A stretch of 24,000 bases of DNA, taken from contig JAHJQK010000195.1 in NCBI GenBank assembly GCA_018819135.1, positions 1-24,000 of the forward strand. Direction: 5' to 3'. The DNA comes from Pseudomonadota bacterium. GTDB taxonomy: Bacteria; Desulfobacterota; SM23-61. Shown one piece after another: positions 1,547-22,376 of this stretch (positions are counted from its first letter, which is position 1; every line of letters starts with the position of its first letter). The notes under the pieces are model-generated. The model searched no databases. It worked only from the letters and a program-made list of their open reading frames with translations, and was not told the DNA's origin. The position numbers were made by a program, and so were the translations under genes.

Positions 1547-2170
1547 TTGTTGACTACGTTGAATAATATGATGTCAAGAAATTCCACTTCGATCCAACAA
1601 GGTTATCGGAAAAGAGTTTCATTCAACTTTGTAAAGTCCGTAAGTCAACGTAGTCAACTACGTCCCGCTTTCCACATTCGAGCACAGTATTCAAAACTTG
1701 TGGCTCCAATACGAAAATTCTTGGCCTTTGCAAGGGATCAAGGTTATCCTGTACATATTATCGGGCAGGAAAAGACTGGAGCGTTTGCTGATCATTTGCA
1801 ACTGATTGGGAACAATGCCCCCCTCCAATCGCTGTTTATCCCTGGCAATCAATACATAAAAGAACAGATTCAACATAGGCCCAACAGAGGGGCACCCTAT
1901 GGTAAGGATACGAACTACGGAGCCAAAGTTTTTGTTCGGATTAGTCATTATCATCAAATGGTGCTAAATATTCCTACCGGAGAGTACGTTGAGGATCCTA
2001 CGCTCTCTAATCTCATCGGTGCTGAAAGAATCTTTGCGACATTACCGACAGTTTTGAGTAGCCGGTTTGAGGGAGCCCTTTTACCCATTGAACTGGCTCA
2101 TGACGTTGCATCTCTCTCAACATATCCTTCTGCTCAAATTCTCAAGATTTTTGCAGAAGCAAAGGGATAG
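1547..2170 (+). pseudogene. NurA-like (RNase H-fold) nuclease domain ORF, probably 5'-truncated
   Basis: VHIIGQEKTGAFADHL, KVFVRISHYHQMVLNIP and LPIELAHDVASLS resemble the central and C-terminal NurA motifs. No N-terminal DGS-type catalytic Asp block is present. The frame opens only at 1463 after a TAA, and no ATG with an RBS is present (the tracked start is TTG). Confidence 0.4.
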
Positions 2171-2287
2171 AAGAATTAATAAGGCATGGCGTACAACATA
2201 GCATTTACACTCCACTTTGTTTCGGGGCTTTGCCCATATTCGCTACGCTCCAGCGAACGTCGTAAAAGCTTAACCCGTTGAGTACCG

Positions 2288-3220
2288 ATGATTGGACAAA
2301 AAAGAAAAAGGCGGCAAGATGACATTGTATATTTTCAGGAAAACACGAAGAAAAAAGAGAGGATAGGTAAAATGACATTTATGGATAACAATGAAAGTTC
2401 TCTTGCAAAATTAATTAGTTCAGAGTTGGAATATCTCTTAAAACAAGTAGAAGCGGATATAAAACAAAGGAACTCCACAAAGAAATATTTGTCACACATT
2501 AGGAAGGCATTTGAAGAATCGGATACTGAAACTTTAAACAGGCTATTATTGAGACAATTAAAGGACCGTCTCTTAACTTCTTATCCTACAGCCAAGGAGA
2601 TATTTGAAAAACTTTCAATCGATGTTAAAAGGCGTTCTGAACAGGTTTTTTCCTCTCTCTTTACCCGTTTCCAGGAATATTGTTCTAATAATAAAATTTC
2701 TCTCCACGGTAAACTGCCAAAGCTATTTGTTGATTACTTACTCGAAGTCGAAATGGATGAAAACAAACAGACGGCAAAAATAGGGACTATCTTTTTAAAA
2801 ACTCTGGACTGGGAAAAGATTCGTGTGGCAATAGACCGGGAACGGCATCGAATTTGGGAAAGGGAATTTGATCCGACCAGTTTTCGAGATCATCTATTAA
2901 ATGTTTATTTAGAAATAATCAAGGTTAAACCGAACCCTGTAGGATGGGTGCGATTAGAAGGTGTTTATCAATCACTAAAGAGGGATATCCAGCAAAAAAA
3001 TCCCAATTGGAAAAAAGGGGGGCGTCTTGTACCATATTATAAAGACGAATTCAGTGCAGACCTTTCAAAACTCTGGGAAGCCCAGATAAGTCGAAAAAGT
3101 GGCTCTCCCCATATTGAACTAAGTGGAATTCGTGATCCTCGTTTATCATATAAGGTCGTGTTACCAGATGGACAAATTCAGTCTTATGGGCATATGCGGC
3201 CTAAGAAGGAGGAAACCTAA
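2288..3220 (+). CDS. Hypothetical protein, first gene of the four-gene ATPase-helicase operon
   Basis: 310-aa ORF with an alternative ATG at 2372 that has GAGAGGA upstream. The N-terminal half looks helical and charged, and I recognise no catalytic motif. Its stop overlaps the next start (TAATG at 3218-3222). Confidence 0.75.
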   Translation: MIGQKRKRRQDDIVYFQENTKKKERIGKMTFMDNNESSLAKLISSELEYLLKQVEADIKQRNSTKKYLSHIRKAFEESDTETLNRLLLRQLKDRLLTSYPTAKEIFEKLSIDVKRRSEQVFSSLFTRFQEYCSNNKISLHGKLPKLFVDYLLEVEMDENKQTAKIGTIFLKTLDWEKIRVAIDRERHRIWEREFDPTSFRDHLLNVYLEIIKVKPNPVGWVRLEGVYQSLKRDIQQKNPNWKKGGRLVPYYKDEFSADLSKLWEAQISRKSGSPHIELSGIRDPRLSYKVVLPDGQIQSYGHMRPKKEET

Positions 3221-4407
3221 TGGATAACATTTCAACCTTACTAAAAGACCAAGCATATCGCATAATTAGTGCCCTGCGTAAGGGTACACCCCCTGAAGAG
3301 GGGGTCGATCTATATTCTGTCGGACGGGAACAATTGCTCTCTTACTTTGATGACAAGCTAATTGAGATTAAGAACTATGGTGTTTCTGATGTAAAGCTTG
3401 TAAGTGCTGATTGGGGACATGGGAAAAGTCATTTCCTTGATTTATTGCGGAATTTAGCATTCAAACATAATTTTGTTGTCTCAAAAGTTGTATTACACCA
3501 AAGCGAAACACCTTTCGACAAATTGCCTATTGTTATTCAACGTTTAATGTCAAATATTTCTACGCCGGAAAATCGTGTTAATGGACTAGAAGCATTATTA
3601 AATAATTGGTCAGTTCGTAATAAGTCAAAAGGTGAACAGGAAATTTTCAAAAGCCTCACAGATATGGGTATCTATCCCGATATGCGAATGAAGTTAGTAG
3701 AATATCAAAGACATTATAATTGTCCAACAGGACCCGAGTATCAACAATGTCTTCAAGTGCTGAAATGGTTTCGGGGCGAAGAGACGGCATCAAAAACATT
3801 TAAAAATGTTCGTGAATACTTACATAGCTTTATCCAATTTGTTCATTCTTTGGGATACAGCGGTTTTGTAGTGTTGCTTGATGAAGCTGAGGCAGTTACC
3901 CAGCTTATAGGCATAAAGCGTCGAGACCTCGCCAATGAAAATCTCAGGCAAATAATTGATAATGATCAAGACACACAAGGTTTTTATTTTGTCTTTGCAT
4001 CCACCCCCACATTTTTAAGTGGTGAGGATGAGCGGGGCGCGCAAAGTTACCCTGCGCTCTGGAGGCGTATAAGCGATCCTTTACATGGATTACAACAAGA
4101 TTCTCTTCATAAGGTTATTGTAGACTTGCCAAAACTGACAGAAGAAGAATTTTTCAAATTAGCTCAGAAGATAAAAGCAGTTTGCGAGATTGCAAAGGGG
4201 CAAAATTTAACAATGGTTACTGACAACCATCTCCGATCCTTAGCTCACTATGTTCAGACCCGAACTGATCAAAGGGTCGGCACTATGGTGCGAAGCACTG
4301 TTGCGATTTTAGATGAAACAACCTCTCCAGATTTTGACTTTTTAGCAAGATTTGAATTTATTGTAGAAAAAGCAATGGAGCAAGAAGCGATGGATAGAGC
4401 CAGATAA
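3220..4407 (+). CDS. BrxD-like P-loop ATPase (DUF2791 family), paralogue 1
   Basis: N-terminal ALRKGTPPEEGVDLYSVGRE, then Walker A ADWGHGKSH (GHGKS at 3415-3429) and Walker B VVLLDEAE. It is translationally coupled to the upstream gene. Confidence 0.8.
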   Translation: MDNISTLLKDQAYRIISALRKGTPPEEGVDLYSVGREQLLSYFDDKLIEIKNYGVSDVKLVSADWGHGKSHFLDLLRNLAFKHNFVVSKVVLHQSETPFDKLPIVIQRLMSNISTPENRVNGLEALLNNWSVRNKSKGEQEIFKSLTDMGIYPDMRMKLVEYQRHYNCPTGPEYQQCLQVLKWFRGEETASKTFKNVREYLHSFIQFVHSLGYSGFVVLLDEAEAVTQLIGIKRRDLANENLRQIIDNDQDTQGFYFVFASTPTFLSGEDERGAQSYPALWRRISDPLHGLQQDSLHKVIVDLPKLTEEEFFKLAQKIKAVCEIAKGQNLTMVTDNHLRSLAHYVQTRTDQRVGTMVRSTVAILDETTSPDFDFLARFEFIVEKAMEQEAMDRAR

Positions 4408-4419
4408 AGGAGAATAGTC

Positions 4420-5646
4420 GTGGCTCAAAAAATAGATTTGTTAGGGATAATACAACAAGCCAGGGAAAGAGGATATTTTGATTTTACTGATTTCCCAGGA
4501 CTAACCATGAATTTTGAACAATTTAAGGAACTTTCAAGCTTGCTCGAAAAAAAGAAAATTCCTTTTGGAACTGTAAGCAGTGCGATTAAACTTACCCAGC
4601 AGGAAGCCTTGCTCATAGTCAATTCTCTACGAAAAGGTGTCCCCCCGCCGATAGATGTTACCCATTTTTCTGTTGGACGCAAAAATTTAGAGGATAGGTT
4701 TAGCAAAGACCTACAAGCCGTTGGACAGAGTGCATCGCGAGTTCGTTTTATGAATGCTGATTACGGATATGGTAAGACTCATTCTCTTTATCTCCTGAGA
4801 GAGATTGCTTTTAGGCAAGAATTCATTGTAAGTATAGTGACGCTAAGCCAAAATTCATGTCCCATACATGATTTTATGGCTGTATATGATCGGATTATGT
4901 GGAACCTCAGAACACGAGAGGAGAGGAATAAACCTGCGATAGAAAGTGTGCTTGATAAATGGCTTCAGGCCATTCGTGAAAAGGGTGAAGAAAGAGCGAG
5001 ACAAATCATTAAAGCACTTCCCGATGATTTAAAAAGTGCTCTCCATGCTTATCATGAAAGCGTTAGCCCTGTTAGACCTAATGAAGAGAAAAGGTTATTA
5101 GTTCTAAACTATGTTTCTGGGAAAAGTATTTACTTACGAGACCTACGTCGTATTGAAATCAATAACCGTATAGATAGTTCCAATGCTCTGATCATGCTTG
5201 GATATATGGCCTCGTTATACAGAAATCTAAATTTTCGAGGCATCTGTATTCTTTTCGATGAAGCAGATCCAATTCACTCTTTTGCAAAATTTGAGCATCA
5301 GGATCAAGCTTATAGCAATTTGTTCCAAATTATCCAGCAAAGTCAAACTACACCGTTTTGCTATTTCCTTTATGCCACAACTCCCAGCTTCTTTGATAAT
5401 TATGCACCTTACTGGCATACTCATAAAATAAAAGATGGTGACATCTTTGAGTTGGAAAAATTGGATGTTTTCGAGCTACAAAGATTGTCCTTAACCCTTT
5501 GTAAAATTTATTCCATCGCTAAGGGAGCTAAAGTGCCCAATAATATTGAGCAAAGGCTAAGAAATTTAGCTTCTGATCCATCCTTTAGCGATACCATTGG
5601 GAATTTTGTGCGAAGGTGTATCGCTATTTTAGATGAAGGAAGATGA
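4420..5646 (+). CDS. BrxD-like P-loop ATPase (DUF2791 family), paralogue 2
   Basis: GTG start with AAGGAG at 4407-4412. SLRKGVPPPIDVTHFSVGRK, Walker A ADYGYGKTH and Walker B ILFDEAD. It has an extra ~55-aa N-terminal extension relative to paralogue 1. Confidence 0.8.
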   Translation: MAQKIDLLGIIQQARERGYFDFTDFPGLTMNFEQFKELSSLLEKKKIPFGTVSSAIKLTQQEALLIVNSLRKGVPPPIDVTHFSVGRKNLEDRFSKDLQAVGQSASRVRFMNADYGYGKTHSLYLLREIAFRQEFIVSIVTLSQNSCPIHDFMAVYDRIMWNLRTREERNKPAIESVLDKWLQAIREKGEERARQIIKALPDDLKSALHAYHESVSPVRPNEEKRLLVLNYVSGKSIYLRDLRRIEINNRIDSSNALIMLGYMASLYRNLNFRGICILFDEADPIHSFAKFEHQDQAYSNLFQIIQQSQTTPFCYFLYATTPSFFDNYAPYWHTHKIKDGDIFELEKLDVFELQRLSLTLCKIYSIAKGAKVPNNIEQRLRNLASDPSFSDTIGNFVRRCIAILDEGR

Positions 5647-7777
5647 GCGAATGAAAGACTGGAAAGAAACTTTAAAAGAAGAGGGTTTCGCACCAAAACC
5701 AACCTCACCCGTTCTATTAGATAACGCTATTTCTGCCCTTCTCCATAAGCATCAACAACAATTCACTGATATTCAATCTCAGGCGATACAGCCAATCTAT
5801 GCTGGCGAAAACGCCTTACTGATTTCCAGCACAGCCAGTGGAAAAACAGAAACTGCAGTTATTCCTATTGTTGCAAGGATTTCTGAAAACCGGAAGGATT
5901 CACTTTGTATTTACATAGCACCCACAAAAGCCCTTCTCAATGATCTATATAAGCGCTTAAGCGTTCCTCTTCATCGTCTCGATATACAGTTAGGTATAAG
6001 GCATGGGGATAAGCCGCTTTCCTCAAGTGACAAGGAATTGTCATTCCTCTTAACTACGCCCGAATCCCTGGACATTCTTTTATGTAAGGATTATCCATTT
6101 CTTTCAAAAGTGAAATTTGTTGTCTGTGATGAAATACATCAGGTATTCGGGTCCCCTCGAGGGCTTCAACTGCTTTTCCTTCTAGATCGACTGAAGAAAA
6201 AGGCCGGTCGAGGATTACAACGGGTTGCCCTTTCTGCTACGGTAGGAAATCAAAACATAGTTAGTGAATGGTTTCGTGGAGGAGATAGGCCTGTCAGAAT
6301 ATTCTCTACTGGCACTCAGCGTCCCCTTAATCCAGAGTTTCACTGGTTAGATCAATATAATTCTTTAAGAAATGTTATACAACAATCAAAAGCGAAAAAA
6401 GTTCTTATCTTTGTAAACTCACGACGAATGTGCGATGAATTATTTTTGGAACTGGGTAATTTCTCACATTATCAAGTCTTTGTGCATTATTCGACCTTAG
6501 AAAGGGAACAGAGAGAATATGTGGAATCTCAGTTTAAGGTCTCGGAATTTGCCATTTGTATCGCTACAACAACGTTAGAACTAGGCATAGATATAGGTTC
6601 CATAGAGGTCATAATCCTGTACGAACCTCCTCAAAGCGTTACCAGTTTTCTTCAAAGGATTGGCCGCGGCAGTAGGAGAACTGCGAAAACATGGGTGATT
6701 ATGACACCAAAAAATAATTTAGAGCTACTCCAATTTTATGCATTTACGTCCCTAGCTAGTGAGGGAGAAATAGAAAATACCCCTCCTGGCCAATTCTATA
6801 GCGTTCTTATTCAACAAATCTTCTCCAGTATTGCAGCCAAACATCACCATCGAGTACACAAAACTGAAATTGAAGAAATATGCAACTCTTTCTCCTGGAT
6901 TCAACCTGAAGAAATAAACTTGATAATGCAAAGACTTTCAAGTCAGAGGTATTTGCGGCTTGAGGCCAGATGGTCAAGTTATCAAATGGGTCCTATATTA
7001 GAATCCTTATATAATGAGATGGCAATTTTTTCAAATATATCTAACGGTGAATCCGGTATCCAGGTCTTTCATGAAGGTCGTCGTTTAGCCTCTCTACCAT
7101 TACCAGTCGCTCAAATTCGATTGGGGACAGTTATACTTTTTGCTGGACGTTACTGGGAAATTACATCAGTTGGAGAAGCTCGGATAAGCGTTCGCTTAAC
7201 TAGCCCCGTTTCTTCCCCTATTCGTCCTTCCTACGGTAAGGGTGGTGGCAATTATATGAGTTCAATTGTTGCTCAAAAAATTAAAACAGTTCTATCAGGA
7301 GGAGCGAGTTTATCATATTTCAGACTCGATAGGGCTACAGAAAACCGTTTAAGGGACCTTCAAGTCAGAATAACTTCAGAAAGTTATGAGGGGTGCATTT
7401 TTCAAACGAGACACGCCTCTAAGTATTTCTATTATACTTTTGCTGGTGGTGTAGAAAATAGGATTCTTCAGCTTCTTTTTTCAAGATTCGGGCATTCTTG
7501 TCAGTTGATGAGGAACGCCGAAGGTATTGCTATTTATTCCGATGAACCCCTTGACTTTTGCCTAATTCCCGATGATGACGTTCGAATCAAAGAAATAATT
7601 CATGATCACTGGCAGAGTTTTTTACCATTGGCAAGTACTGGGTCATTCTTTAACCTTCTTCCCATTTCACTAAAGGGGAAAGAAGTTTTATCACAGATTG
7701 ACTATGAGGGAACCGTTTCAAATGTCATTGTCATGAGAAATAGAACTGTTATTTGTATATCTGGCAGGCTATTCTGA
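5633..7777 (+). CDS. Lhr/BrxHI-like SF2 DExH helicase with DEAD-associated-type C-terminal region
   Basis: Q motif FTDIQSQAI, motif I STASGKTE, Ia YIAPTKAL, Ib TTPESL, II DEIH, III SAT, V TTTLELGIDIG and VI QRIGRGSRR. The C-terminal YYTFAGGVENRILQLLF is Lhr-like. An alternative start at 5651 (MKDWKE) has a better-spaced AAGGAAG. Confidence 0.9.
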   Translation: MKEDERMKDWKETLKEEGFAPKPTSPVLLDNAISALLHKHQQQFTDIQSQAIQPIYAGENALLISSTASGKTETAVIPIVARISENRKDSLCIYIAPTKALLNDLYKRLSVPLHRLDIQLGIRHGDKPLSSSDKELSFLLTTPESLDILLCKDYPFLSKVKFVVCDEIHQVFGSPRGLQLLFLLDRLKKKAGRGLQRVALSATVGNQNIVSEWFRGGDRPVRIFSTGTQRPLNPEFHWLDQYNSLRNVIQQSKAKKVLIFVNSRRMCDELFLELGNFSHYQVFVHYSTLEREQREYVESQFKVSEFAICIATTTLELGIDIGSIEVIILYEPPQSVTSFLQRIGRGSRRTAKTWVIMTPKNNLELLQFYAFTSLASEGEIENTPPGQFYSVLIQQIFSSIAAKHHHRVHKTEIEEICNSFSWIQPEEINLIMQRLSSQRYLRLEARWSSYQMGPILESLYNEMAIFSNISNGESGIQVFHEGRRLASLPLPVAQIRLGTVILFAGRYWEITSVGEARISVRLTSPVSSPIRPSYGKGGGNYMSSIVAQKIKTVLSGGASLSYFRLDRATENRLRDLQVRITSESYEGCIFQTRHASKYFYYTFAGGVENRILQLLFSRFGHSCQLMRNAEGIAIYSDEPLDFCLIPDDDVRIKEIIHDHWQSFLPLASTGSFFNLLPISLKGKEVLSQIDYEGTVSNVIVMRNRTVICISGRLF

Positions 7778-7805
7778 AATGAAGGGGCAACAACTCCTTC
7801 TAACA

Positions 7806-7874
7806 CAGAGTTTGTGGCTATAGTGCTGCTGCATTTCCCCTAAAATCTTGCTTCGCAGGACTTCACAAACTCTG
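7806..7874. other. 11-bp perfect inverted repeat with a 47-nt spacer, between the helicase operon and the ParDE-like pair
   Basis: cagagtttgtg (7806-7816) and cacaaactctg (7864-7874). Confidence 0.5.
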
Positions 7875-8396: not shown

Positions 8397-8538
8397 GCAG
8401 CGGCCTATCGGGGCGCCCGTGTTCCCGAGGGCACGGCGCTGACCGCTCCGCGGCACAGCGCCTATCTGCCGGTTTCCCGGCAGATGCCCAAATGTCCCTG
8501 CGGGACACTTCGGGAACCCGGGCGCCCCGTTAGGCGAC
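8397..8538 (+). repeat. Structured GC-rich repeat, copy 1 (attC-like, REP-like or MITE-like)
   Basis: ~93% identical by hand alignment to 10881-11023. Outer arms ggcctatcggggcgcccgtgttcccgag and cttcgggaacccgggcgccccgttaggc are near reverse complements. Internal hairpins are atctgccgg-tttc-ccggcagat, gtccc-tgc-gggac and ggcgctg...cagcgcc. It ends in GTTAGGC and starts 13 nt after the ParE stop. Confidence 0.85.
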
Positions 8539-8577
8539 ATGTTTGGATCGGGAAGTATAGGAAATGGTTAAAAAGAT

Positions 8578-8892
8578 ATGAAGTGGTTTGAAGATGTCTT
8601 CAACAGAAATATCCGTTTGACGGATGAGCGTCTGGAGCATACCGAGCTTGACCATCCCGAAATGTCTGGTCAGATTGATAAAATAGCAGAGACGTTGCAA
8701 AACCCTGAGATCGTTATCAGATCAAGATCGGATTCGGAGGTGGAGCTTTTTTATAGGTATTATTCGGAAACGCCTGTCGGAGACAAATACATGTGTGTTA
8801 TTGTTAAAGGGAGAGGTAAAGACCTTTTTATTATAACTGCATATTTTACTGACACCATGAAGAGAGGTGAAACACTATGGCGGAAGCGATAA
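8578..8892 (+). CDS. Putative small toxin (DUF4258-like / barnase-EndoU-RelE-like family guess)
   Basis: The 104-aa product ends in LFIITAYFTDTMKRGETLW, typical of this small-toxin family. It overlaps a downstream DUF2283-like gene by 16 nt. Confidence 0.5.
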   Translation: MKWFEDVFNRNIRLTDERLEHTELDHPEMSGQIDKIAETLQNPEIVIRSRSDSEVELFYRYYSETPVGDKYMCVIVKGRGKDLFIITAYFTDTMKRGETLWRKR

Positions 8893-9092
8893 AAGTTTGG
8901 TACGACAAAGAGGGAGACTACCTTGAAGTTCTCTTTGAAAGAAAAGCCGGTTATTTCAAAGAGACCGAGAACGATGCAGTGATGGAAAAAGTCGATGAAG
9001 AAGGGAACATGATCGGTTTCTCCATATTGAAAGTCAGCGCGCTAAAGGAGCAGAAACCTCTTTCAATTGAATTGAAAAGACACGTCGGCTAA
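8877..9092 (+). CDS. DUF2283-like small protein (putative antitoxin partner)
   Basis: IKVWYDKEGDYLEVLFE...EEGNMIGFSILKVS matches the DUF2283 pattern. GAGGTG RBS. Confidence 0.65.
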   Translation: MAEAIKVWYDKEGDYLEVLFERKAGYFKETENDAVMEKVDEEGNMIGFSILKVSALKEQKPLSIELKRHVG

Positions 9093-9095
9093 CAC

Positions 9096-9141
9096 AGGCC
9101 AAAAGATCGGCATCCAAATGCTTCGCACTTTTTTTTGGCCT
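9096..9141 (+). terminator. Hairpin after the DUF2283-like gene (possible terminator)
   Basis: aggccaaaa (9096-9104) pairs with ttttggcct (9133-9141) inside a T8 run. The 28-nt loop is long for a canonical intrinsic terminator. Confidence 0.3.
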
Positions 9142-9230
9142 TGAACGATTGCAGACAATTCTTGAACCGCTTCTCTCAACAAAGTAATGGGTGCGCAAAA
9201 TCAGAAAAGCCAGAGGAAAATCAGCAATCA

Positions 9231-9569
9231 ATGGAAAGAACGGCAATGACATTAAGGAAAGCTGTGAAAAGCGAAAATGTCTTGGCAGGACTAATCAGTA
9301 AAGCCATCGAATTCAGAGCAGACGAAATCGAAATCGAATATAAGGATGGCTATGAAGAGGTCTTTGCGATGCGCGATTGGTTGGGGATAAGCGTAGGCAA
9401 AATAGAATCAGGTTCAGAAGAAGCCCGTGCGCTTCGGCAATTGCTGCATAAAGTAAAGGGGAAGACGAAAATAAGAGATGGAGAGGATTATCAAATCAGA
9501 GTCGCTATCCATGAGAGTTTTGGCGAAGACGCTTTTCGCTTATCGTTCAGAAGGCTGAAGTTATCATGA
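9231..9569 (+). CDS. Hypothetical small protein coupled to a wHTH gene
   Basis: ATG at 9231 (alternative 9246). The tracked TTG start at 9135 lies inside the upstream hairpin. Its stop overlaps the next start (ATGA at 9566-9569). No motif recognised. Confidence 0.45.
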   Translation: MERTAMTLRKAVKSENVLAGLISKAIEFRADEIEIEYKDGYEEVFAMRDWLGISVGKIESGSEEARALRQLLHKVKGKTKIRDGEDYQIRVAIHESFGEDAFRLSFRRLKLS

Positions 9570-9814
9570 AGTATACAAAACGCCAAGCAGAATACGTGGC
9601 ATTCATCTGCTATTACACCAAGATTCATGGACGCGCTCCGGCAGAACATGAAATCATGGACTATTTTAGGGTTTCTCCTCCGAGCGTCCACCAGATGATA
9701 TTGAACCTTGAGAAGAATGGGCTCATTTCACGCGTTGCCGGTCAGGCACGGTCTATCCGAATTGTAGTTCCGGAAGATGAATTGCGCGAGTTGAAGAAGA
9801 TAGCAGATTTTTAG
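9566..9814 (+). CDS. LexA-N-terminal-like winged-helix DNA-binding protein
   Basis: TKRQAEYVAFICYYTKIHGRAPAEHEIMDYFRVSPPSVHQMILNLEKNGLISR follows the LexA DNA-binding domain pattern. At 82 aa it has no peptidase domain. Confidence 0.6.
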   Translation: MKYTKRQAEYVAFICYYTKIHGRAPAEHEIMDYFRVSPPSVHQMILNLEKNGLISRVAGQARSIRIVVPEDELRELKKIADF

Positions 9815-9834
9815 ACACAAGGAAAGGTTTACCG

Positions 9835-10188
9835 ATGAGCGACAAGGAAAGCAAGGTTATTGGATTTATTGCCCAAAGGAAAGGCACTTTAGACCTTCTT
9901 TGTGATGGAGATTCTGCTATAGTTGCTGGATCTGAAAAGAAAATAAGAGAATATATCTCTACCTCTATGGGCCGAAGTACCTCCAATTACGAAATCAAGA
10001 AGGCGAGATACGGACATATTCTTCAATGCCTAAAGCTCGGAGCAGCGTATTCGTTTGATGAGGAATCTTATAACCGTTTCTATCCTTTGGCTATACAGGA
10101 GGGAAGGAAATTGGTTGAAATCGGAAAAGACGCCAATAAAGCAACAGGGAAAACTGGTCTTCATTTGCTTCGAGTGAAATGGGTATAA
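9835..10188 (+). CDS. Hypothetical protein
   Basis: 117-aa ORF with AAGGAAAGG upstream; no motif recognised. Confidence 0.5.
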   Translation: MSDKESKVIGFIAQRKGTLDLLCDGDSAIVAGSEKKIREYISTSMGRSTSNYEIKKARYGHILQCLKLGAAYSFDEESYNRFYPLAIQEGRKLVEIGKDANKATGKTGLHLLRVKWV

Positions 10189-10373
10189 AGTTTCCTTTAC
10201 CATGATATGGGAAAAAGGCCTTACGCGCCCAAGAGCTGATCGGAATTGCAGTCAAGTGAAAGAGGAGCGGTTCAAGAACTCTGCGCTTCGCTTGGCCTTC
10301 GGGGTCCAAAACAGTGGCTTTCGCAAAGCCGCAGGCGTTGCCTGCGCCTTAATGAAAATCTTGAGAATAGAAG

Positions 10374-10658
10374 ATGAATATCCGTTTTTATATCGATCCG
10401 GAGACAAGTCTACCTCACATCTATAATCATAGGGTTGTCGAGAGCGAGGTTGAGGATGTTTTGAGCAGCCCGGGTGAGGATCGTCCGGGTCGCGAAGGCT
10501 CCCGAGTCGCCATAGGCCAGACACAAGCAGGACGATATTTACGGGTTATTTACGTTCCTGATCCTGAACCAGCAAGTGTTTTTGTAATCACAGCTTACGA
10601 ATTGAAAGGCAAGCCGTTAATCGCTTATCGACGGCGCAGACATAGGAGGCAAAGATGA
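10374..10658 (+). CDS. Putative small toxin (DUF4258/BrnT-like guess)
   Basis: IRFYIDPETSLPHIYNHRVVESEVEDVL...VFVITAYELKGKPLIAYRRRR. It overlaps the downstream gene by 4 nt (ATGA). Confidence 0.5.
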   Translation: MNIRFYIDPETSLPHIYNHRVVESEVEDVLSSPGEDRPGREGSRVAIGQTQAGRYLRVIYVPDPEPASVFVITAYELKGKPLIAYRRRRHRRQR

Positions 10659-10852
10659 AGCAGAGTAAATTTCCACTAGGGTGGGATGAAGAGAGAGTCC
10701 GCAGAGTTCTAGCGCACTATGAGGAACAGACGGAAGAAGAGGCGGTAGCGGAGGATGAAGCAACTTTTGAGGATCAAACACAAACCGTTATGGAGATTCC
10801 TAACGAGCTGGTGCCTTTTGTCCGGGAACTCATTGCCAAGCATCAAACATAG
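10655..10852 (+). CDS. Putative cognate antitoxin, acidic small protein
   Basis: AGGAGG RBS. WDEERVRRVLAHYEEQTEEEAVAEDEATFED is a pattern I recall as the partner of the upstream toxin family. Confidence 0.5.
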   Translation: MKQSKFPLGWDEERVRRVLAHYEEQTEEEAVAEDEATFEDQTQTVMEIPNELVPFVRELIAKHQT

Positions 10853-10880: not shown

Positions 10881-11023
10881 GCGGCGGCCTATCGGGGCGC
10901 CCGTGTTCCCGAGGGCACGGCGCTGACCACTCCGCGGGACAGCGCCTATCTTTCGGTTTCCCGGCAGATGCCCCAAATGTCCCTTCGGGACACTTCGGGA
11001 ACCCGGGCGCCCCGATAAGTGAA
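10881..11023 (+). repeat. Structured GC-rich repeat, copy 2
   Basis: Same orientation as copy 1. By hand alignment it differs by about ten substitutions and one 1-nt indel. It starts 29 nt after the antitoxin stop and ends in cccgataagtga rather than cccgttaggcga. Confidence 0.85.
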
Positions 11024-11340
11024 ATCGGGGGCAAAGGGTTTAAAATGATGCGTGAAATACAATAAAAAATATCAATTGATTGGAGGTTATAATAATGGGA
11101 TATGACGATCTGCAACAAGATGAGGCACATCATCATGATTGGTTGATTAAGAAAATAGAGGATAGGATTTCAAAACTTATGACTGGGGATGTAGAGCCTT
11201 CGATACCGATTCCTCCAAAAAAATCGTTGGAAACTTCACACATAGTTTCACCACCAGAAAAAACCAGAACAATACTAGCAGAATCAAATATAGTTGCTAA
11301 TGTGGATTGCGTATGTCGTAAGAACAGCAGTAATCCTTGT

Positions 11341-12705: not shown

Positions 12706-12859
12706 GGAATAAAACAGAAAAATGTCCCGCTCCACAGCCGATGAAATTCCTCGCTTCTTCCTGGCCTCCTGGAAGTAAAGAGCCAGCAGTATCTTGAAGG
12801 CCCGGTCAGGTAAACAGACCGGGCCTTTTGGAGAAAATCGACCGCCAAGGGAGATCGGG

Positions 12860-13708
12860 ATGTTCATCTACACCTTGAAACGTCTTCTTTTAGCTTTGGC
12901 TGTGGCTTTGGTTGTTTCCGCCCTTAGCTTCGGCCTCCTCTACCTTTCGGGCGATCCGGCGACAGCAATCGGGGGTGAAGCGGCCACCGATACCGACATC
13001 GAATTCATTCGCAAGACCTATGGTTTTGACCAGCCGGTGACGGTTCAGTATCTGACCTGGATGGGCAAAGCCTTTGAGGAAGCAATGGCCGAGGCGCGGG
13101 CCGGCCGAGGAACTGCCGAAGAAAAACCCCTGGTGTTGGCTGACTTTACTGACAATCCTGGATCAGGGGGGTATGGCGATGGCATTAGGCTCCTGCGGGC
13201 GATGATCGAAGCAGACCTTCCCAACGCAGCGTTTGCCTGCGTGCCCCATCCGCAGGCGGTCCAGAAGTGCATTGCCGCCGGAGTCGGCTCAGGAGTGACC
13301 ATGGATTTGGGGGCCAGGATCGATCCCAGAAGCTACGGCCCACCCCTCAGGGTCAGCGGAATTGTGGAACACGTGAGCGATGGGGTCTTCACCTGCCAGG
13401 GACCGATGAATAAGGGAGTTCGGTTCTCCATGGGGCCCACGGCCGTTTTCCGCCACGGCGGGGTTCGAGTTCTGATAACCACCAATAATTTGCAGGTTTA
13501 TGACCTTCAGGTTTTCTTGAGCCAGAAGATCGACCCCCAGACCTGCGAAGTAGTAGCGGTTAAATCCTGGCACCATTTCCGGGCCGCCTTCGAGCCCATT
13601 GCTCGTAAAGTGATGCTGGTGGACAGTGGGGGGCTGGTTTCCATGGACCTCAAGCGCTTCAACTACCGGAAAGTTCGCCGCCCTATCTATCCCCTCGACC
13701 TGGATTGA
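12860..13708 (+). CDS. In-frame chimera: DppB/OppB-type permease N-terminus fused to an MlrC (M81 peptidase family) C-terminal domain; possibly a pseudogene
   Basis: MFIYTLKRLLLALAVALVVSALSFGLLYLSGDPA...IEFIRKTYGFDQPVTVQYLTWMGKA is the start of a Dpp/Opp permease. From FEEAMAEARAG...LADFTDNPGSGGYGDG...VAVKSWHHFRAAFEPIA...RRPIYPLD it is MlrC-C-like. The MlrC N-terminal domain and the rest of the permease are missing. Confidence 0.6.
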   Translation: MFIYTLKRLLLALAVALVVSALSFGLLYLSGDPATAIGGEAATDTDIEFIRKTYGFDQPVTVQYLTWMGKAFEEAMAEARAGRGTAEEKPLVLADFTDNPGSGGYGDGIRLLRAMIEADLPNAAFACVPHPQAVQKCIAAGVGSGVTMDLGARIDPRSYGPPLRVSGIVEHVSDGVFTCQGPMNKGVRFSMGPTAVFRHGGVRVLITTNNLQVYDLQVFLSQKIDPQTCEVVAVKSWHHFRAAFEPIARKVMLVDSGGLVSMDLKRFNYRKVRRPIYPLDLD

Positions 13709-21684: not shown

Positions 21685-21814
21685 TGGCATTTTAGTCCTT
21701 CCCAGTCCATCTTGACTCCGGAGCTTTTCCTTTCTAAGGCTGCCAGGCCTGCCGTTCAGACGATCCCGTGGAGTCAGCAGCTCTTCCTCGGCCACAGCAA
21801 ACTAAAATTGAAAG

Positions 21815-22190
21815 TAGGGGCGGAAGCGAAGATCGATCCCAGAACCTACGGGCCTTCCCTCATTTTTGATGGAGTGGTTGAGAATATCAGCGACGGAGCT
21901 TACACCTGCGAAGGGCCTATGAACAAGGGCGTCCGTTTCTCCCTGGGGCCGACGGCTGTTTTGCGGCAGGGTGGAGTGCGGGTGGTGGTGGCTACTCATA
22001 ACCACCAGGTGTACGATTTGCAGGTCTTCCGTACCCAGAACATCGAGCCCCGGGAGTGCTCCGTTCTTGCGGTCAAATCCTGGCACCATTTCCGGGCCGC
22101 CTTCGAACCCATTTCCAGCGGGGTGCTTCTGGCGGACAGCGGTGGCTTAGCTTCCATGGACCTCAACCGAATTAGTCAAGAAATATCCGG
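21815..22190 (+). pseudogene. Second MlrC C-terminal-domain fragment, truncated at both ends (inside tracked ORF 21712-22230)
   Basis: KIDPRTYGPSLIFDGVVENISDGAYTCEGPMNKGVRFSLGPTAV...LAVKSWHHFRAAFEPIS parallels 13309-13660. A 39-nt block at 22075-22113 matches 13562-13600 with one mismatch. Similarity is lost at both ends of the ORF. Confidence 0.55.
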
Positions 22191-22376
22191 ATCGTTTTCC
22201 CGGCTTCATTGCCTCCCTACCCATGAATGATCCGGAAGGACTTCTGGCTGAGGCCGAAAGGGCAATCAAGGACCTGGGGGCTAGCAATAAGGCTCCCCGT
22301 GGTAAAATGCTTCGCTTGGAAATGTATAGAATAACCTAAGGGGCTACAAGTTGTTAAAATTTCGAAGGAGTATACC

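What the first reader, a model, noticed from the sequence alone, without database searches (positions are those of the whole stretch)
2288..7777. Stand-alone four-gene operon: orphan protein + two divergent BrxD-like ATPases + Lhr/BrxHI-like helicase, with no BREX core genes
Seen in sequence: four same-strand ORFs have coupled junctions. There is a TAATG stop/start overlap at 3218-3222, and a 12-nt gap with AAGGAG and a GTG start at 4420. The helicase start either overlaps by 14 nt (5633) or follows the stop by 4 nt (5651). ORF2 and ORF3 both show LRKG-PP...SVGR, then Walker A AD(W/Y)G(H/Y)GK(S/T)H and Walker B (L/F)DEA(E/D), which is the BrxD/DUF2791 layout as I recognise it. ORF4 has every SF2 motif (FTDIQ, STASGKTE, YIAPTKAL, TTPESL, DEIH, SAT, TTTLELGIDIG, QRIGRGSRR) plus an Lhr-style C-terminal region. 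Established knowledge: BrxD and the Lhr-like helicase BrxHI are accessory genes of type 2 BREX (Pgl). That system also contains the PglX methyltransferase, PglZ, PglW and PglY. None of those, and no methyltransferase of any kind, is in this 24-kb window. Inference: the ATPase-helicase pair has been combined with a duplicated ATPase and a novel 5' gene into an autonomous module. Its setting in an AT-rich, toxin-antitoxin-dense island is the usual context of anti-phage systems. No obvious effector is encoded, so the mechanism is open.
Basis: partly seen in the sequence, partly recalled or inferred. Interest (0 to 1): 0.9.

Follow-up and report, generated by a model that had tools for sequence, protein, structure and literature searches.

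The report
Unnamed Shango-like four-gene defence cassette
This is a real, widely conserved four-gene cassette (a protein with no solved-structure match, two paralogous BrxD-like ATPases and an Lhr-like helicase) that sits in anti-phage defence islands, is related to but distinct from Shango and the BrxD-BrxHI pair of type 2 BREX, and appears not to have been named or tested.

Summary
Four co-directional, translationally coupled genes occupy 2372-7777. Two details need correcting: ORF1 starts at ATG 2372, not 2288, and the helicase probably starts at 5651.

ORF2 and ORF3 are paralogous PF10923 (DUF2791/BrxD-type) AAA+ ATPases with intact Walker motifs. The ORF2 model has an ORC/Cdc6-like fold. 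ORF4 is an Lhr/BrxHI/SngC-type SF2 helicase. ORF1 founds a family of about 280-aa proteins with no Pfam, PADLOC or PDB match.

The order ORF1-ATPase1-ATPase2-helicase recurs without exception in every related locus with enough DNA. These loci span about ten bacterial lineages and two plasmids of cultured strains. DNA homology breaks sharply at 2283 and about 7803. All four genes are under purifying selection.

The closest known systems are Shango (TerB protein + ATPase + helicase) and BREX-2 BrxD-BrxHI. The cassette fails the membership tests for both and forms a separate branch.

Some variants fuse a probable HEPN or a NERD domain to ATPase 1. About half of the loci adjoin BREX-like or methyltransferase/SNF2 systems, so autonomy is likely but unproven.

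Verdict: a probable new Shango-like defence system. Its function is inferred and its mechanism is unknown.

The parts
2283..2371 (+). Conserved non-coding leader (probable promoter / 5' UTR) at the left edge of the conserved unit
   Evidence: blastn homology to 8 independent loci starts at 2283-2288. The alignment shows indels that are not multiples of three, and a conserved GAGAGGAT Shine-Dalgarno before ATG 2372. No convincing sigma-70 consensus was found.
2372..3220 (+). ORF1 (282 aa; the mechanical ORF begins at 2288). Founding member of an unannotated family of about 280-aa proteins. Proposed adaptor or sensor.
   Evidence: 125 homologues, mostly 276-285 aa. A profile search found 213 representatives at E<=1e-3. 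No consistent Pfam family matched in 32 members, and there was no PADLOC or NCBIfam hit. The AF2 model has pLDDT 91. There was no PDB or BFVD fold match at E<0.1. Invariant residues include R160, W162, R164, Y222, D225, E226, D230, R254, D255 and R257. dN/dS is 0.14-0.29.
3220..4407 (+). ORF2, ATPase 1 (395 aa). A DUF2791/BrxD-type AAA+ ATPase with an ORC/Cdc6-like fold.
   Evidence: PF10923 8e-52. PADLOC BrxD 8e-38 and SngB 6.5e-33. NCBIfam BREX_BrxD scores 127 bits against a cut-off of 350. The AF2 model has pLDDT 87, and Foldseek matches ORC4/ORC1, archaeal Cdc6/Orc1, TnsC, DnaA and BrxC. Walker A and B are conserved in 39 of 40 orthologues.
4420..5646 (+). ORF3, ATPase 2 (408 aa, GTG start). 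A paralogue of ORF2 with an extra N-terminal stretch of about 57 aa.
   Evidence: PF10923 2e-41. It is 30% identical to ORF2, E 5e-44. It forms its own orthologous clade in every locus. Walker A and B are conserved in 26 of 26 orthologues.
5651..7777 (+). ORF4, an Lhr/BrxHI/SngC-type SF2 helicase (708 aa from 5651, or 714 aa from the alternative ATG at 5633).
   Evidence: DEAD 2e-31, Helicase_C 4e-22, WH_Lhr weak. PADLOC BrxHI 6e-95, SngC 1.4e-84, DpdJ 1.6e-33. The best PDB sequence hits are Lhr 5v9x and 7lhl. The catalytic core of every SF2 motif is invariant in 23 orthologues, with substitutions only at peripheral positions.
2283..7803 (+). The whole conserved, horizontally mobile unit (leader plus four genes).
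   Evidence: DNA homology (77-87% identity) to L010/L018, L021, L022, L025/L055-57, L027 and L028 begins at 2283-2384 and, where the contig allows, ends at 7729-7817. Flanks are unrelated.

Best explanation
The operon is a self-contained anti-phage / anti-mobile-element module of the same general kind as Shango and the BrxD-BrxHI pair of type 2 BREX.

Proposed mechanism (inferred, not shown):
1. The two paralogous ORC/Cdc6-like AAA+ ATPases form a hetero-oligomer.
2. Together with ORF1, which acts as adaptor or nucleic-acid sensor, this complex recognises invader DNA or replication intermediates.
3. It then loads or activates the Lhr-like helicase on that DNA.
4. Unwinding or translocation either blocks phage replication directly or exposes the DNA to nucleases. 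These nucleases could be host enzymes or belong to neighbouring restriction-like systems.
5. In related copies, ATPase 1 carries an N-terminal HEPN or NERD domain that would serve as a built-in nuclease effector.

What is shown: the gene content, the catalytic motifs, the folds, the conserved synteny, the mobility and the defence-island context.

What is inferred: the defence function, complex formation, helicase loading and the role of ORF1.

ORF2 and ORF3 as retained paralogues:
- They are 30% identical paralogues.
- Both are retained as distinct orthologous clades with intact Walker A and B motifs in all loci.
- This is the pattern expected for a heteromeric ATPase, as in the archaeal Cdc6/Orc1 heterodimer 2qby, which is among the fold matches.

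Conservation of the unit:
- The four-gene order is invariant in every locus with enough DNA. This includes Desulfomonile tiedjei plasmid pDESTI.01, which has no BREX genes.
- Unit boundaries are sharp at 2283 and about 7803, with unrelated flanks.
- dN/dS is 0.13-0.29 for all four genes.

Defence-island context:
- Adjacent genes include type III-like RM, DUF499/DUF1156/SNF2 systems, PARIS-like AAA_15+DUF4276, TIR-KAP, NERD, PglZ, Eco57I-type methyltransferases and a CBASS AGS_C protein.
- 86 neighbouring ORFs hit 205 PADLOC families at E<=1e-10.

Relatives and variants:
- Shango has the same partner-ATPase-helicase order and is experimentally anti-phage (papers 10.1101/2022.11.11.516204 and 10.1101/2022.05.11.491447).
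- SngC, BrxHI, DpdJ and DruE form an immune-specific SF2 clade (PMC12278908). They include ORF4's three best PADLOC hits.
- BrxD has been proposed as a BrxHI loader (PMC12839542).
- HEPN-type variants carry a conserved Rx4H motif, and Pfam HEPN_Swt1 matches 4 of 9 of them with a best E of 1e-5.
- NERD-type variants have PF08378 on record.
Against: - There is no experimental evidence for any member of this cassette.
- No effector domain is recognisable in this copy.
- ORF1 has no detectable homologue of known function, so its role is a guess.
- In 11 of 21 distinct contexts the cassette is directly next to methyltransferase, SNF2 or PglZ genes. It could therefore depend on a partner system.
- In this window the contig ends 2.3 kb upstream, so an upstream partner cannot be excluded.
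- The mechanisms of Shango and of BrxD-BrxHI are themselves unknown, so the analogy carries little mechanistic weight.
- Lhr proper is a DNA-repair helicase.
Confidence: 0.6

Rival explanations
1. The cassette is not autonomous. It is an accessory helicase/ATPase module that works only with a modification-based system of the BREX, DUF499/DUF1156 'BREX-related' or type III RM kind, as BrxD-BrxHI does in type 2 BREX. On this reading the copy in this window is either orphaned or served by a partner outside the visible sequence.
For: - The cassette sits immediately after BrxC-PglX-PglZ-BrxD-BrxHI on the Aulosira laxa plasmid.
- It lies between the DUF1156 methyltransferase and the SNF2 helicase in L006 and L059.
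- It is adjacent to PLD-SNF2 and/or Eco57I-type methyltransferases in L014, L017, L034, L062 and L064, and to a PglZ-domain protein in L045.
- It is adjacent to a type III-like RM system in L004.
- In total this is 11 of 21 distinct contexts.
- The contig starts only 2.3 kb upstream of the operon.
Against: - Some copies have no methyltransferase nearby: D. tiedjei plasmid, L018 next to mfd, L049 next to a P-type ATPase, L055/L057, and 16 kb downstream in this window.
- The partner systems are heterogeneous (BREX-2, DUF1156 systems, type III RM). That fits island co-location better than one obligate partner.
- PARIS, a known autonomous system, is embedded in the same way in L059 (PMC12839542).
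- Canonical Shango is likewise embedded in a type I RM locus in L072.
- The Aulosira BREX locus already has its own BrxD-BrxHI.
Confidence: 0.2
2. It is simply a divergent Shango. ORF1 would be a functionally equivalent replacement of SngA, and one extra ATPase copy would have arisen by duplication, with no new biology.
For: - The gene order is the same: partner, ATPase, helicase.
- ORF2/ORF3 hit SngB at 6.5e-33 and 7e-24, and ORF4 hits SngC at 1.4e-84.
Against: - The ORF1 profile against SngA gives hhalign probability 0.5%.
- No TerB_N, TerB_C or TerB Pfam hit was found in 32 family members.
- ORF1 is about 280 aa, whereas SngA is 770-840 aa.
- Cassette helicases and ATPases fall outside the BrxHI+SngC and BrxD+SngB groups.
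- The ATPase duplication is ancient and universally retained.
Confidence: 0.1
3. It is a housekeeping or element-encoded DNA-repair or replication module (Lhr-type repair helicase plus initiator-like ATPases) that serves the island, plasmid or host rather than immunity.
For: - The best solved-structure sequence matches of ORF4 are Lhr repair helicases.
- The ORF2 fold resembles the replication initiators ORC/Cdc6, DnaA and TnsC.
- Two copies lie on plasmids.
Against: - The distribution is patchy and horizontally transferred across about ten bacterial lineages, with unrelated flanks.
- Neighbours are consistently defence genes.
- Fusions to a probable HEPN or a NERD nuclease domain are typical of conflict systems.
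- No hits were found in 50,697 phage records.
- Only 2 of 72,556 plasmids carry it, so it is not a common plasmid maintenance function.
Confidence: 0.07

Closest known systems
Shango (SngA-SngB-SngC; Millman et al. 2022, Johnson et al. 2022)
   Same: - It is a stand-alone operon with the same order: partner protein, DUF2791-type ATPase, Lhr-like DEAD/DEAH helicase.
- ORF2/ORF3 and ORF4 hit the SngB and SngC models.
- It is found in defence islands and embedded in RM loci.
- It has no recognised nuclease effector and its mechanism is unknown.
   Different: - The first gene is unrelated. ORF1 is about 280 aa with no solved-structure match and no TerB-N/TerB-C domains, and hhalign against SngA gives probability 0.5%.
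- There are two anciently diverged ATPase paralogues instead of one.
- The helicase and ATPases lie outside the Sng/Brx clades.
- Variants carry a probable HEPN or a NERD domain fused to ATPase 1.
- No experimental validation exists.
BrxD-BrxHI dyad of type 2 BREX (Pgl)
   Same: - It belongs to the same protein families: PF10923 ATPase plus Lhr-like helicase with wHTH and C-terminal region.
- The genes are tightly linked and co-directional.
- BrxD is classed as an ORC/Cdc6 AAA+ ATPase and proposed as a helicase loader (PMC12839542).
- The ORF2 model matches ORC/Cdc6 folds and BrxC 9zdx.
   Different: - The window has no PglX, PglZ, BrxC/PglY or PglW.
- Scores are far below genuine orthologues. 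On the BrxD model, ORF2 and ORF3 score 129 and 106 bits against 552 for a true BrxD. On BrxHI, ORF4 scores 317 bits against 848-929.
- The NCBIfam BrxD cut-off of 350 is not reached.
- The cassette coexists with a complete BrxD-BrxHI pair on the Aulosira plasmid, so the two are not interchangeable.
- It has an extra ORF1 and a second ATPase.
Auxiliary modules embedded in BREX and DUF499/DUF1156 'BREX-related' loci (for example PARIS; PMC12839542)
   Same: The cassette occupies the same kind of position, between the core genes of DUF1156/SNF2 systems and next to a PARIS-like pair (L059) or a TIR-KAP gene (L006).
   Different: That survey does not describe the cassette: there were no text hits for Shango, and BrxD/BrxHI are treated as specific to type 2 BREX. 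Its components are a helicase and AAA+ ATPases rather than an OLD-ABC ATPase plus nuclease.
Hachiman (HamA nuclease + HamB Ski2-like helicase)
   Same: It is a helicase-centred immune system in which the helicase is the sensor. ORF4 hits HamB models weakly, at about 1e-20.
   Different: The helicase clade is different, there is no HamA-like nuclease, and AAA+ ATPases are present. The resemblance is conceptual only (PMC12278908).

Membership tests
Type 2 BREX (Pgl) | PglX methyltransferase in the locus | tested here: not met
   No DNA methyltransferase domain was found in the 32 window ORFs scanned with Pfam, including all of the long ones. The contig ends 2.3 kb upstream, so only that side is open.
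Type 2 BREX (Pgl) | PglZ, BrxC/PglY and PglW in the locus | tested here: not met
   None were detected in the window. For comparison, genuine BrxC, PglX and PglZ on the Aulosira plasmid score 1057-1930 bits.
Type 2 BREX (Pgl) | BrxD orthologue (NCBIfam NF033438 equivalog, cut-off 350 bits) | tested here: not met
   ORF2 scores 127 bits and ORF3 103 bits. A bona fide BrxD scores 552 bits on the PADLOC BrxD model, against 129 and 106 here.
Type 2 BREX (Pgl) | BrxHI orthologue | tested here: inconclusive
   ORF4 hits the BrxHI model at 317 bits and 6e-95, but a genuine BrxHI scores 848-929. The NJ tree puts cassette helicases outside the BrxHI+SngC group. ORF4 is a homologue, probably not an orthologue.
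Shango (SngABC) | SngA: protein with TerB-N / TerB-C (TerB-like) domains | tested here: not met
   No PADLOC or Pfam hit for ORF1, and no TerB family among 32 family members. hhalign of the ORF1 profile against two SngA sequences gives probability 0.5%. ORF1 is 282 aa against 769-842 aa for SngA.
Shango (SngABC) | SngB: a single DUF2791-type ATPase | tested here: inconclusive
   ORF2 and ORF3 hit SngB at 6.5e-33 and 7e-24. However, there are two paralogues, and both fall outside the BrxD+SngB group.
Shango (SngABC) | SngC: Lhr-like DEAD/DEAH helicase encoded last in the operon | tested here: inconclusive
   ORF4 hits SngC at 1.4e-84 and is the last gene. It clusters apart from SngC.
Shango (SngABC) | Demonstrated anti-phage activity | not testable with these tools
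   This requires cloning and plaque assays. Shango itself was validated in P. aeruginosa and E. coli.
PF10923 BrxC_BrxD (DUF2791) P-loop ATPases | Pfam score above the gathering threshold (22.2 bits), with Walker A and Walker B motifs | tested here: met
   ORF2 scores 176.9 bits and ORF3 142.9 bits. GxGK[ST]H and the D-E motif are conserved across orthologues.
ORC/Cdc6-type (initiator clade) AAA+ ATPases | AAA+ core plus helical lid, with the fold closest to ORC/Cdc6 | tested here: met
   The AF2 model has pLDDT 87 and pTM 0.87. Foldseek against PDB returns ORC4, ORC1 and ORC5, archaeal Cdc6/Orc1 (2qby, 1w5s, 2v1u), TnsC and DnaA, with probability 1.0 and E from 4e-4 to 2e-2. HslU is also at the top. 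No C-terminal winged helix was examined.
Lhr-like / immune SF2 helicase clade (SngC, BrxHI, DpdJ, DruE) | Complete SF2 motif set, with Lhr and the immune helicases as closest relatives | tested here: met
   The catalytic core of every SF2 motif is invariant in 23 orthologues, with substitutions only at peripheral positions. The top PADLOC hits are BrxHI, SngC and DpdJ. The top PDB sequence hits are Lhr 5v9x and 7lhl. The WH_Lhr Pfam hit is only weak, E 0.005 and below threshold.

The most novel reading that the evidence does not exclude
The cassette is a previously undescribed family of prokaryotic immune systems. A heteromeric pair of ORC/Cdc6-like ATPases and a protein with no solved-structure match (ORF1) would act as a dedicated loader and sensor that places an Lhr-like helicase on invader DNA. 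This would be an immune counterpart of replicative helicase loading. Nuclease effectors (HEPN, NERD) would be optional and exchangeable add-ons on ATPase 1. Solving it would also explain how Shango and BrxD-BrxHI work.
Probability: 0.25. Interest if true: 0.8.

Novelty: new variant of a known kind. Interest (0 to 1): 0.6.

Why it matters
- The DUF2791-ATPase / Lhr-like-helicase pair occurs in two validated defence systems, Shango and type 2 BREX. The mechanism of neither is understood.
- This third lineage is compact: the ATPase is duplicated, the partner protein is different, and some copies carry fused nucleases. It offers a comparative handle on what the pair does and what the variable first gene contributes.
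- It also adds a candidate system that is common in uncultured anaerobic and sediment lineages (Chloroflexota, Desulfobacterota, Nitrospirota). These are poorly covered by current defence catalogues.
- Two cultured strains carry it on plasmids: Desulfomonile tiedjei DSM 6799 and Aulosira laxa NIES-50. This makes it experimentally accessible.

Tried and rejected
- ORF1 profile against PDB sequences: only noise.
- Pfam scan of 32 ORF1 family members: no consistent family. Only HTH hits appeared, in the N-terminal extension of some members.
- A weak PD-(D/E)xK reading of ORF1 was considered, based on MutH hits at probability 0.02-0.03 and the conserved D/E/K residues. It was rejected as unsupported.
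- The upstream 199-aa ORF (1547-2170) was considered as a fifth gene. It was rejected because DNA homology to other loci starts only at 2283.
- The sigma-70 promoter and terminator scan showed no enrichment.
- No tRNA gene marks an integration site.
- No phage record carries the ATPase.
- Literature searches for BrxD-like, DUF2791 and PF10923, and for the D. tiedjei accessions, found no description of the cassette.
- The 2012 Ter-domain paper by Anantharaman et al. could not be retrieved. Statements about it rest on the citations and on my own recollection.
- The pooled PADLOC scan of neighbours gives family counts only, not per-locus calls.

Full report
**1. The observation**

The window holds four co-directional ORFs: 2288-3220, 3220-4407, 4420-5646 and 5633-7777. 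I read each junction directly.
- TAATG lies at 3218-3222, preceded by AAGGAGG.
- A TAA stop is followed by AAGGAG and a GTG at 4420.
- In-frame ATGs lie at 5633 and 5651, around the ORF3 stop at 5644-5646.

The quoted Walker and SF2 motifs are present.

Two details change.
- Most ORF1 homologues are 276-285 aa. The stretch 2288-2371 aligns to five other loci with indels that are not multiples of three, while ATG 2372 and its GAGAGGAT Shine-Dalgarno are conserved. ORF1 is therefore 2372-3220, 282 aa.
- The helicase more likely starts at 5651, which has a GAAGGAAG Shine-Dalgarno. Another assembly's gene call uses the equivalent position (L002).

**2. What the proteins are**

ORF2 and ORF3
- They match Pfam PF10923 (BrxC_BrxD, formerly DUF2791) at 8e-52 and 2e-41.
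- In PADLOC they match BrxD and SngB.
- They score only 127 and 103 bits on NCBI's BrxD equivalog model, whose cut-off is 350.
- They are paralogues, 30% identical with E 5e-44.
- An AlphaFold model of ORF2 (pLDDT 87, pTM 0.87) matches AAA+ ATPases. The full-length matches are dominated by ORC subunits and archaeal Cdc6/Orc1, and also include TnsC, DnaA, RdrA and the BREX ATPase BrxC.
- This agrees with the published classification of BrxD as an ORC/Cdc6-type ATPase (PMC12839542).

ORF4
- It has DEAD and Helicase_C domains and a weak WH_Lhr hit.
- Its best PADLOC hits are BrxHI (6e-95), SngC (1.4e-84) and DpdJ.
- Its best solved-structure relatives are mycobacterial Lhr.
- SngC, BrxHI, DpdJ and DruE have been reported to form an immune-specific SF2 clade (PMC12278908).

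ORF1
- It has no hit in Pfam, PADLOC or NCBIfam.
- It nevertheless has 125 close homologues, and 213 cluster representatives by profile search.
- Its AlphaFold model is confident (pLDDT 91). It shows a long helical hairpin, a small beta-meander, a helical region, and a C-terminal helix-plus-four-strand unit.
- It has no match in PDB or BFVD below E 0.1.
- About 22 columns are invariant across 32 members, including RxWxR, YYKDEFxxDLS and IRDPR.
- Some members carry an extra N-terminal helix-turn-helix segment.

**3. It is a conserved, mobile unit**

I collected 72 loci from genomes, metagenomes and plasmids.
- In every locus with enough downstream DNA, an ORF1 homologue is followed by an ORF2-type ATPase, an ORF3-type ATPase and an ORF4-type helicase. 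I found no exception.
- The two ATPase types are separate orthologous clades everywhere. The duplication is therefore ancient and both copies are kept.
- Walker A and B motifs are intact in 39 of 40 and in 26 of 26 sequences. The catalytic core of every SF2 motif is invariant in 23 helicases, with substitutions only at peripheral positions.
- dN/dS is 0.13-0.29 for all four genes.
- DNA homology to eight independent loci starts at 2283-2288 and ends at 7783-7817, with unrelated flanks. The unit is thus 2283 to about 7803, and the upstream 199-aa ORF is not part of it.
- Hosts named in records include Nitrospira, Dehalococcoidia, Anaerolineae, Desulfobacteraceae, Bacillota, Zixibacteria, Sumerlaeota and Marinimicrobia MAGs.
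- A more divergent subtype occurs on plasmids of two cultured strains, Aulosira laxa NIES-50 and Desulfomonile tiedjei DSM 6799. The D. tiedjei first gene is linked to the ORF1 family by hhalign at probability 94.5% and E 8e-8.
- Only these 2 of 72,556 plasmids, and none of 50,697 phage records, carry it.

**4. Context**

In the window, the cassette lies in a low-GC stretch of 38-45%.
- This stretch holds PIN, ParE, PBECR2/DUF2283 and DUF4258 genes.
- It lies next to higher-GC chromosomal genes for AFOR, isochorismatase, a Liv-type ABC transporter and an MFS transporter.

Elsewhere the neighbours are overwhelmingly defence genes.
- A type III-like RM system with DUF87.
- DUF1156 methyltransferase, TIR-KAP, SNF2-PLD and NERD.
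- DUF499, a PARIS-like AAA_15+DUF4276 pair, DUF1156 and SNF2.
- PLD-SNF2 and Eco57I-type methyltransferases.
- A PglZ-domain protein.
- A CBASS AGS_C protein and IS elements.
- 86 neighbouring ORFs hit 205 PADLOC families at 1e-10.

In 11 of 21 distinct contexts a methyltransferase, SNF2 or PglZ gene lies within one or two genes.
- In L006 and L059 the cassette sits between the methyltransferase and the helicase of a DUF1156 system. This is the same kind of embedded position that PARIS occupies (PMC12839542).
- On the Aulosira plasmid it follows a BREX locus that already has its own BrxD and BrxHI.
- Copies with no such neighbour also exist: D. tiedjei, L018, L049 and L055/L057.

**5. Comparison with known systems**

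Type 2 BREX
- It needs PglX, PglZ, PglY/BrxC and usually PglW. None is present here.
- ORF2, ORF3 and ORF4 score three- to five-fold lower than the genuine Aulosira BrxD and BrxHI on the same models.

Shango
- It is defined as a TerB-like protein, an ATPase and a DEAD/DEAH helicase in that order.
- I retrieved five canonical examples from plasmids.
- The ORF1 profile shows no relationship to SngA: hhalign probability is 0.5%.
- ORF1 is about one third of SngA's length.

Trees
- In distance trees the cassette helicases form one group, sister to BrxHI+SngC.
- BrxD and SngB group together, apart from the cassette ATPases.

The cassette is therefore a third lineage of the DUF2791-ATPase / Lhr-like-helicase module. 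It is not a member of either named system. I found no description of it in the searchable literature. The 2026 BREX survey treats BrxD and BrxHI as specific to type 2 BREX and does not mention Shango.

**6. Variants that bear on mechanism**

- In nine of the fetched loci, and in about 17 of the 120 listed ATPase-1 homologues, ATPase 1 carries an N-terminal extension of 180-200 aa.
- This extension has a conserved Rx4H motif (QLRHPAAH / EIRPQLAH).
- It gives sub-threshold but repeated Pfam HEPN hits: HEPN_Swt1 in 4 of 9 with a best E of 1e-5, plus HEPN_SAV2148 and HEPN.
- Two further homologues carry a NERD domain, and one of them sits in an otherwise standard four-gene locus.
- ORF1 is retained in all of these. 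The fused nucleases are therefore additions, not replacements for ORF1.
- This suggests a core sensing and motor machine to which effectors can be attached. It leaves open what the effector is in the plain version found here.

**7. Most likely function and mechanism**

I consider a stand-alone defence module the best explanation, at confidence about 0.6. The evidence is the synteny, the mobility, the purifying selection, the defence-island context and the kinship to two validated systems.

The mechanism I propose is inferred from fold analogy and from published speculation about BrxD. It is not shown by any data here.
1. The two ATPases form an ORC/Cdc6-like hetero-oligomer.
2. With ORF1 as adaptor or sensor, they load or activate the helicase on invader DNA.
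3. The helicase then blocks replication directly or hands the DNA to nucleases.

Rivals:
- An accessory role dependent on BREX-like or RM-like partners (0.2).
- A merely divergent Shango (0.1).
- A repair or replication function (0.07).

**8. Verdict**

- It is a new variant of a known kind rather than something categorically new.
- Its function is untested.
- Interest: 0.6.

Noticed in passing
window 8397-8540 and 10881-11025: A 145-bp direct repeat (92.4% identity) brackets the cluster of small toxin-antitoxin-like genes at 8578-10852 (PBECR2, DUF2283, LexA-like HTH, DUF4258). A second assembly's contig (L002) ends its homology exactly at 8397. This may be an insertion with duplicated ends.
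   Followed up: no
L014, L016, L017, L040, L047, L049, L050, L052, L063 (ATPase-1 genes, e.g. L049:6993-8705): ATPase 1 carries an N-terminal extension of 180-200 aa. It has a conserved Rx4H motif and repeated sub-threshold Pfam HEPN hits, so it is probably a fused HEPN RNase.
   Followed up: partly
L068:1361-3208 (protein P0346); also P0341: ATPase 1 is fused to a NERD (PF08378) domain in an otherwise standard four-gene cassette.
   Followed up: partly
L014:5204-6307, L017:9713-10813, L040:279-1382, L063:10001-11095: These ORF1 homologues are 364-367 aa and carry an extra N-terminal helix-turn-helix segment of about 85 aa. It co-occurs with one of the two HEPN-type ATPase-1 forms.
   Followed up: partly
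L059:1328-19138 and L006:3900-19230: The cassette is inserted between the DUF1156 methyltransferase and the SNF2(-PLD) helicase of a DUF499/DUF1156 'BREX-related' system. It lies beside a PARIS-like AAA_15+DUF4276 pair (L059) or a TIR-KAP NTPase (L006).
   Followed up: partly
L009:4762-18720 plus L008:8620-14014 (Aulosira laxa NIES-50 plasmid3, AP018310.1): A BREX locus (BrxC, PglX, PglZ, BrxD, BrxHI; no PglW checked) is followed 173 bp later by a divergent copy of the four-gene cassette. Both kinds of ATPase-helicase module therefore sit side by side.
   Followed up: yes
L058:4130-6690 (GCA_000405345.1): In one genome the ATPase-1 gene is interrupted by an IS21-family element (rve + IstB). 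This is an inactivated copy of the cassette.
   Followed up: no
L015:6242-9817 and the P0087 contig: An SF1 helicase-like protein of about 1190 aa (AAA_30, AAA_19, UvrD_C_2) lies directly beside the cassette in two unrelated contexts. It may be another recurrent partner or a separate defence gene.
   Followed up: no
L072:1-8446 (Cetobacterium somerae plasmid p7): Canonical Shango (TerB_N, ATPase, helicase) follows directly after type I RM genes (M subunit, a PDDEXK nuclease gene, S subunit), which lie on its upstream side. This shows that Shango too can sit right beside an RM locus.
   Followed up: no
window 12794-13708 and 21712-22230: Two separate ORFs carry MlrC_C fragments, and the first is fused to a BPD_transp_1_N segment. 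They look like rearranged or pseudogenised chromosomal genes near the island edge. GC content rises from about 40% to about 60% between 12 and 17 kb.
   Followed up: no
window 1547-2170: A 199-207-aa ORF lies just upstream of the cassette and has no Pfam, PADLOC or NCBIfam hit. It is conserved only in assemblies of the same organism (L003) and lies outside the conserved unit.
   Followed up: partly
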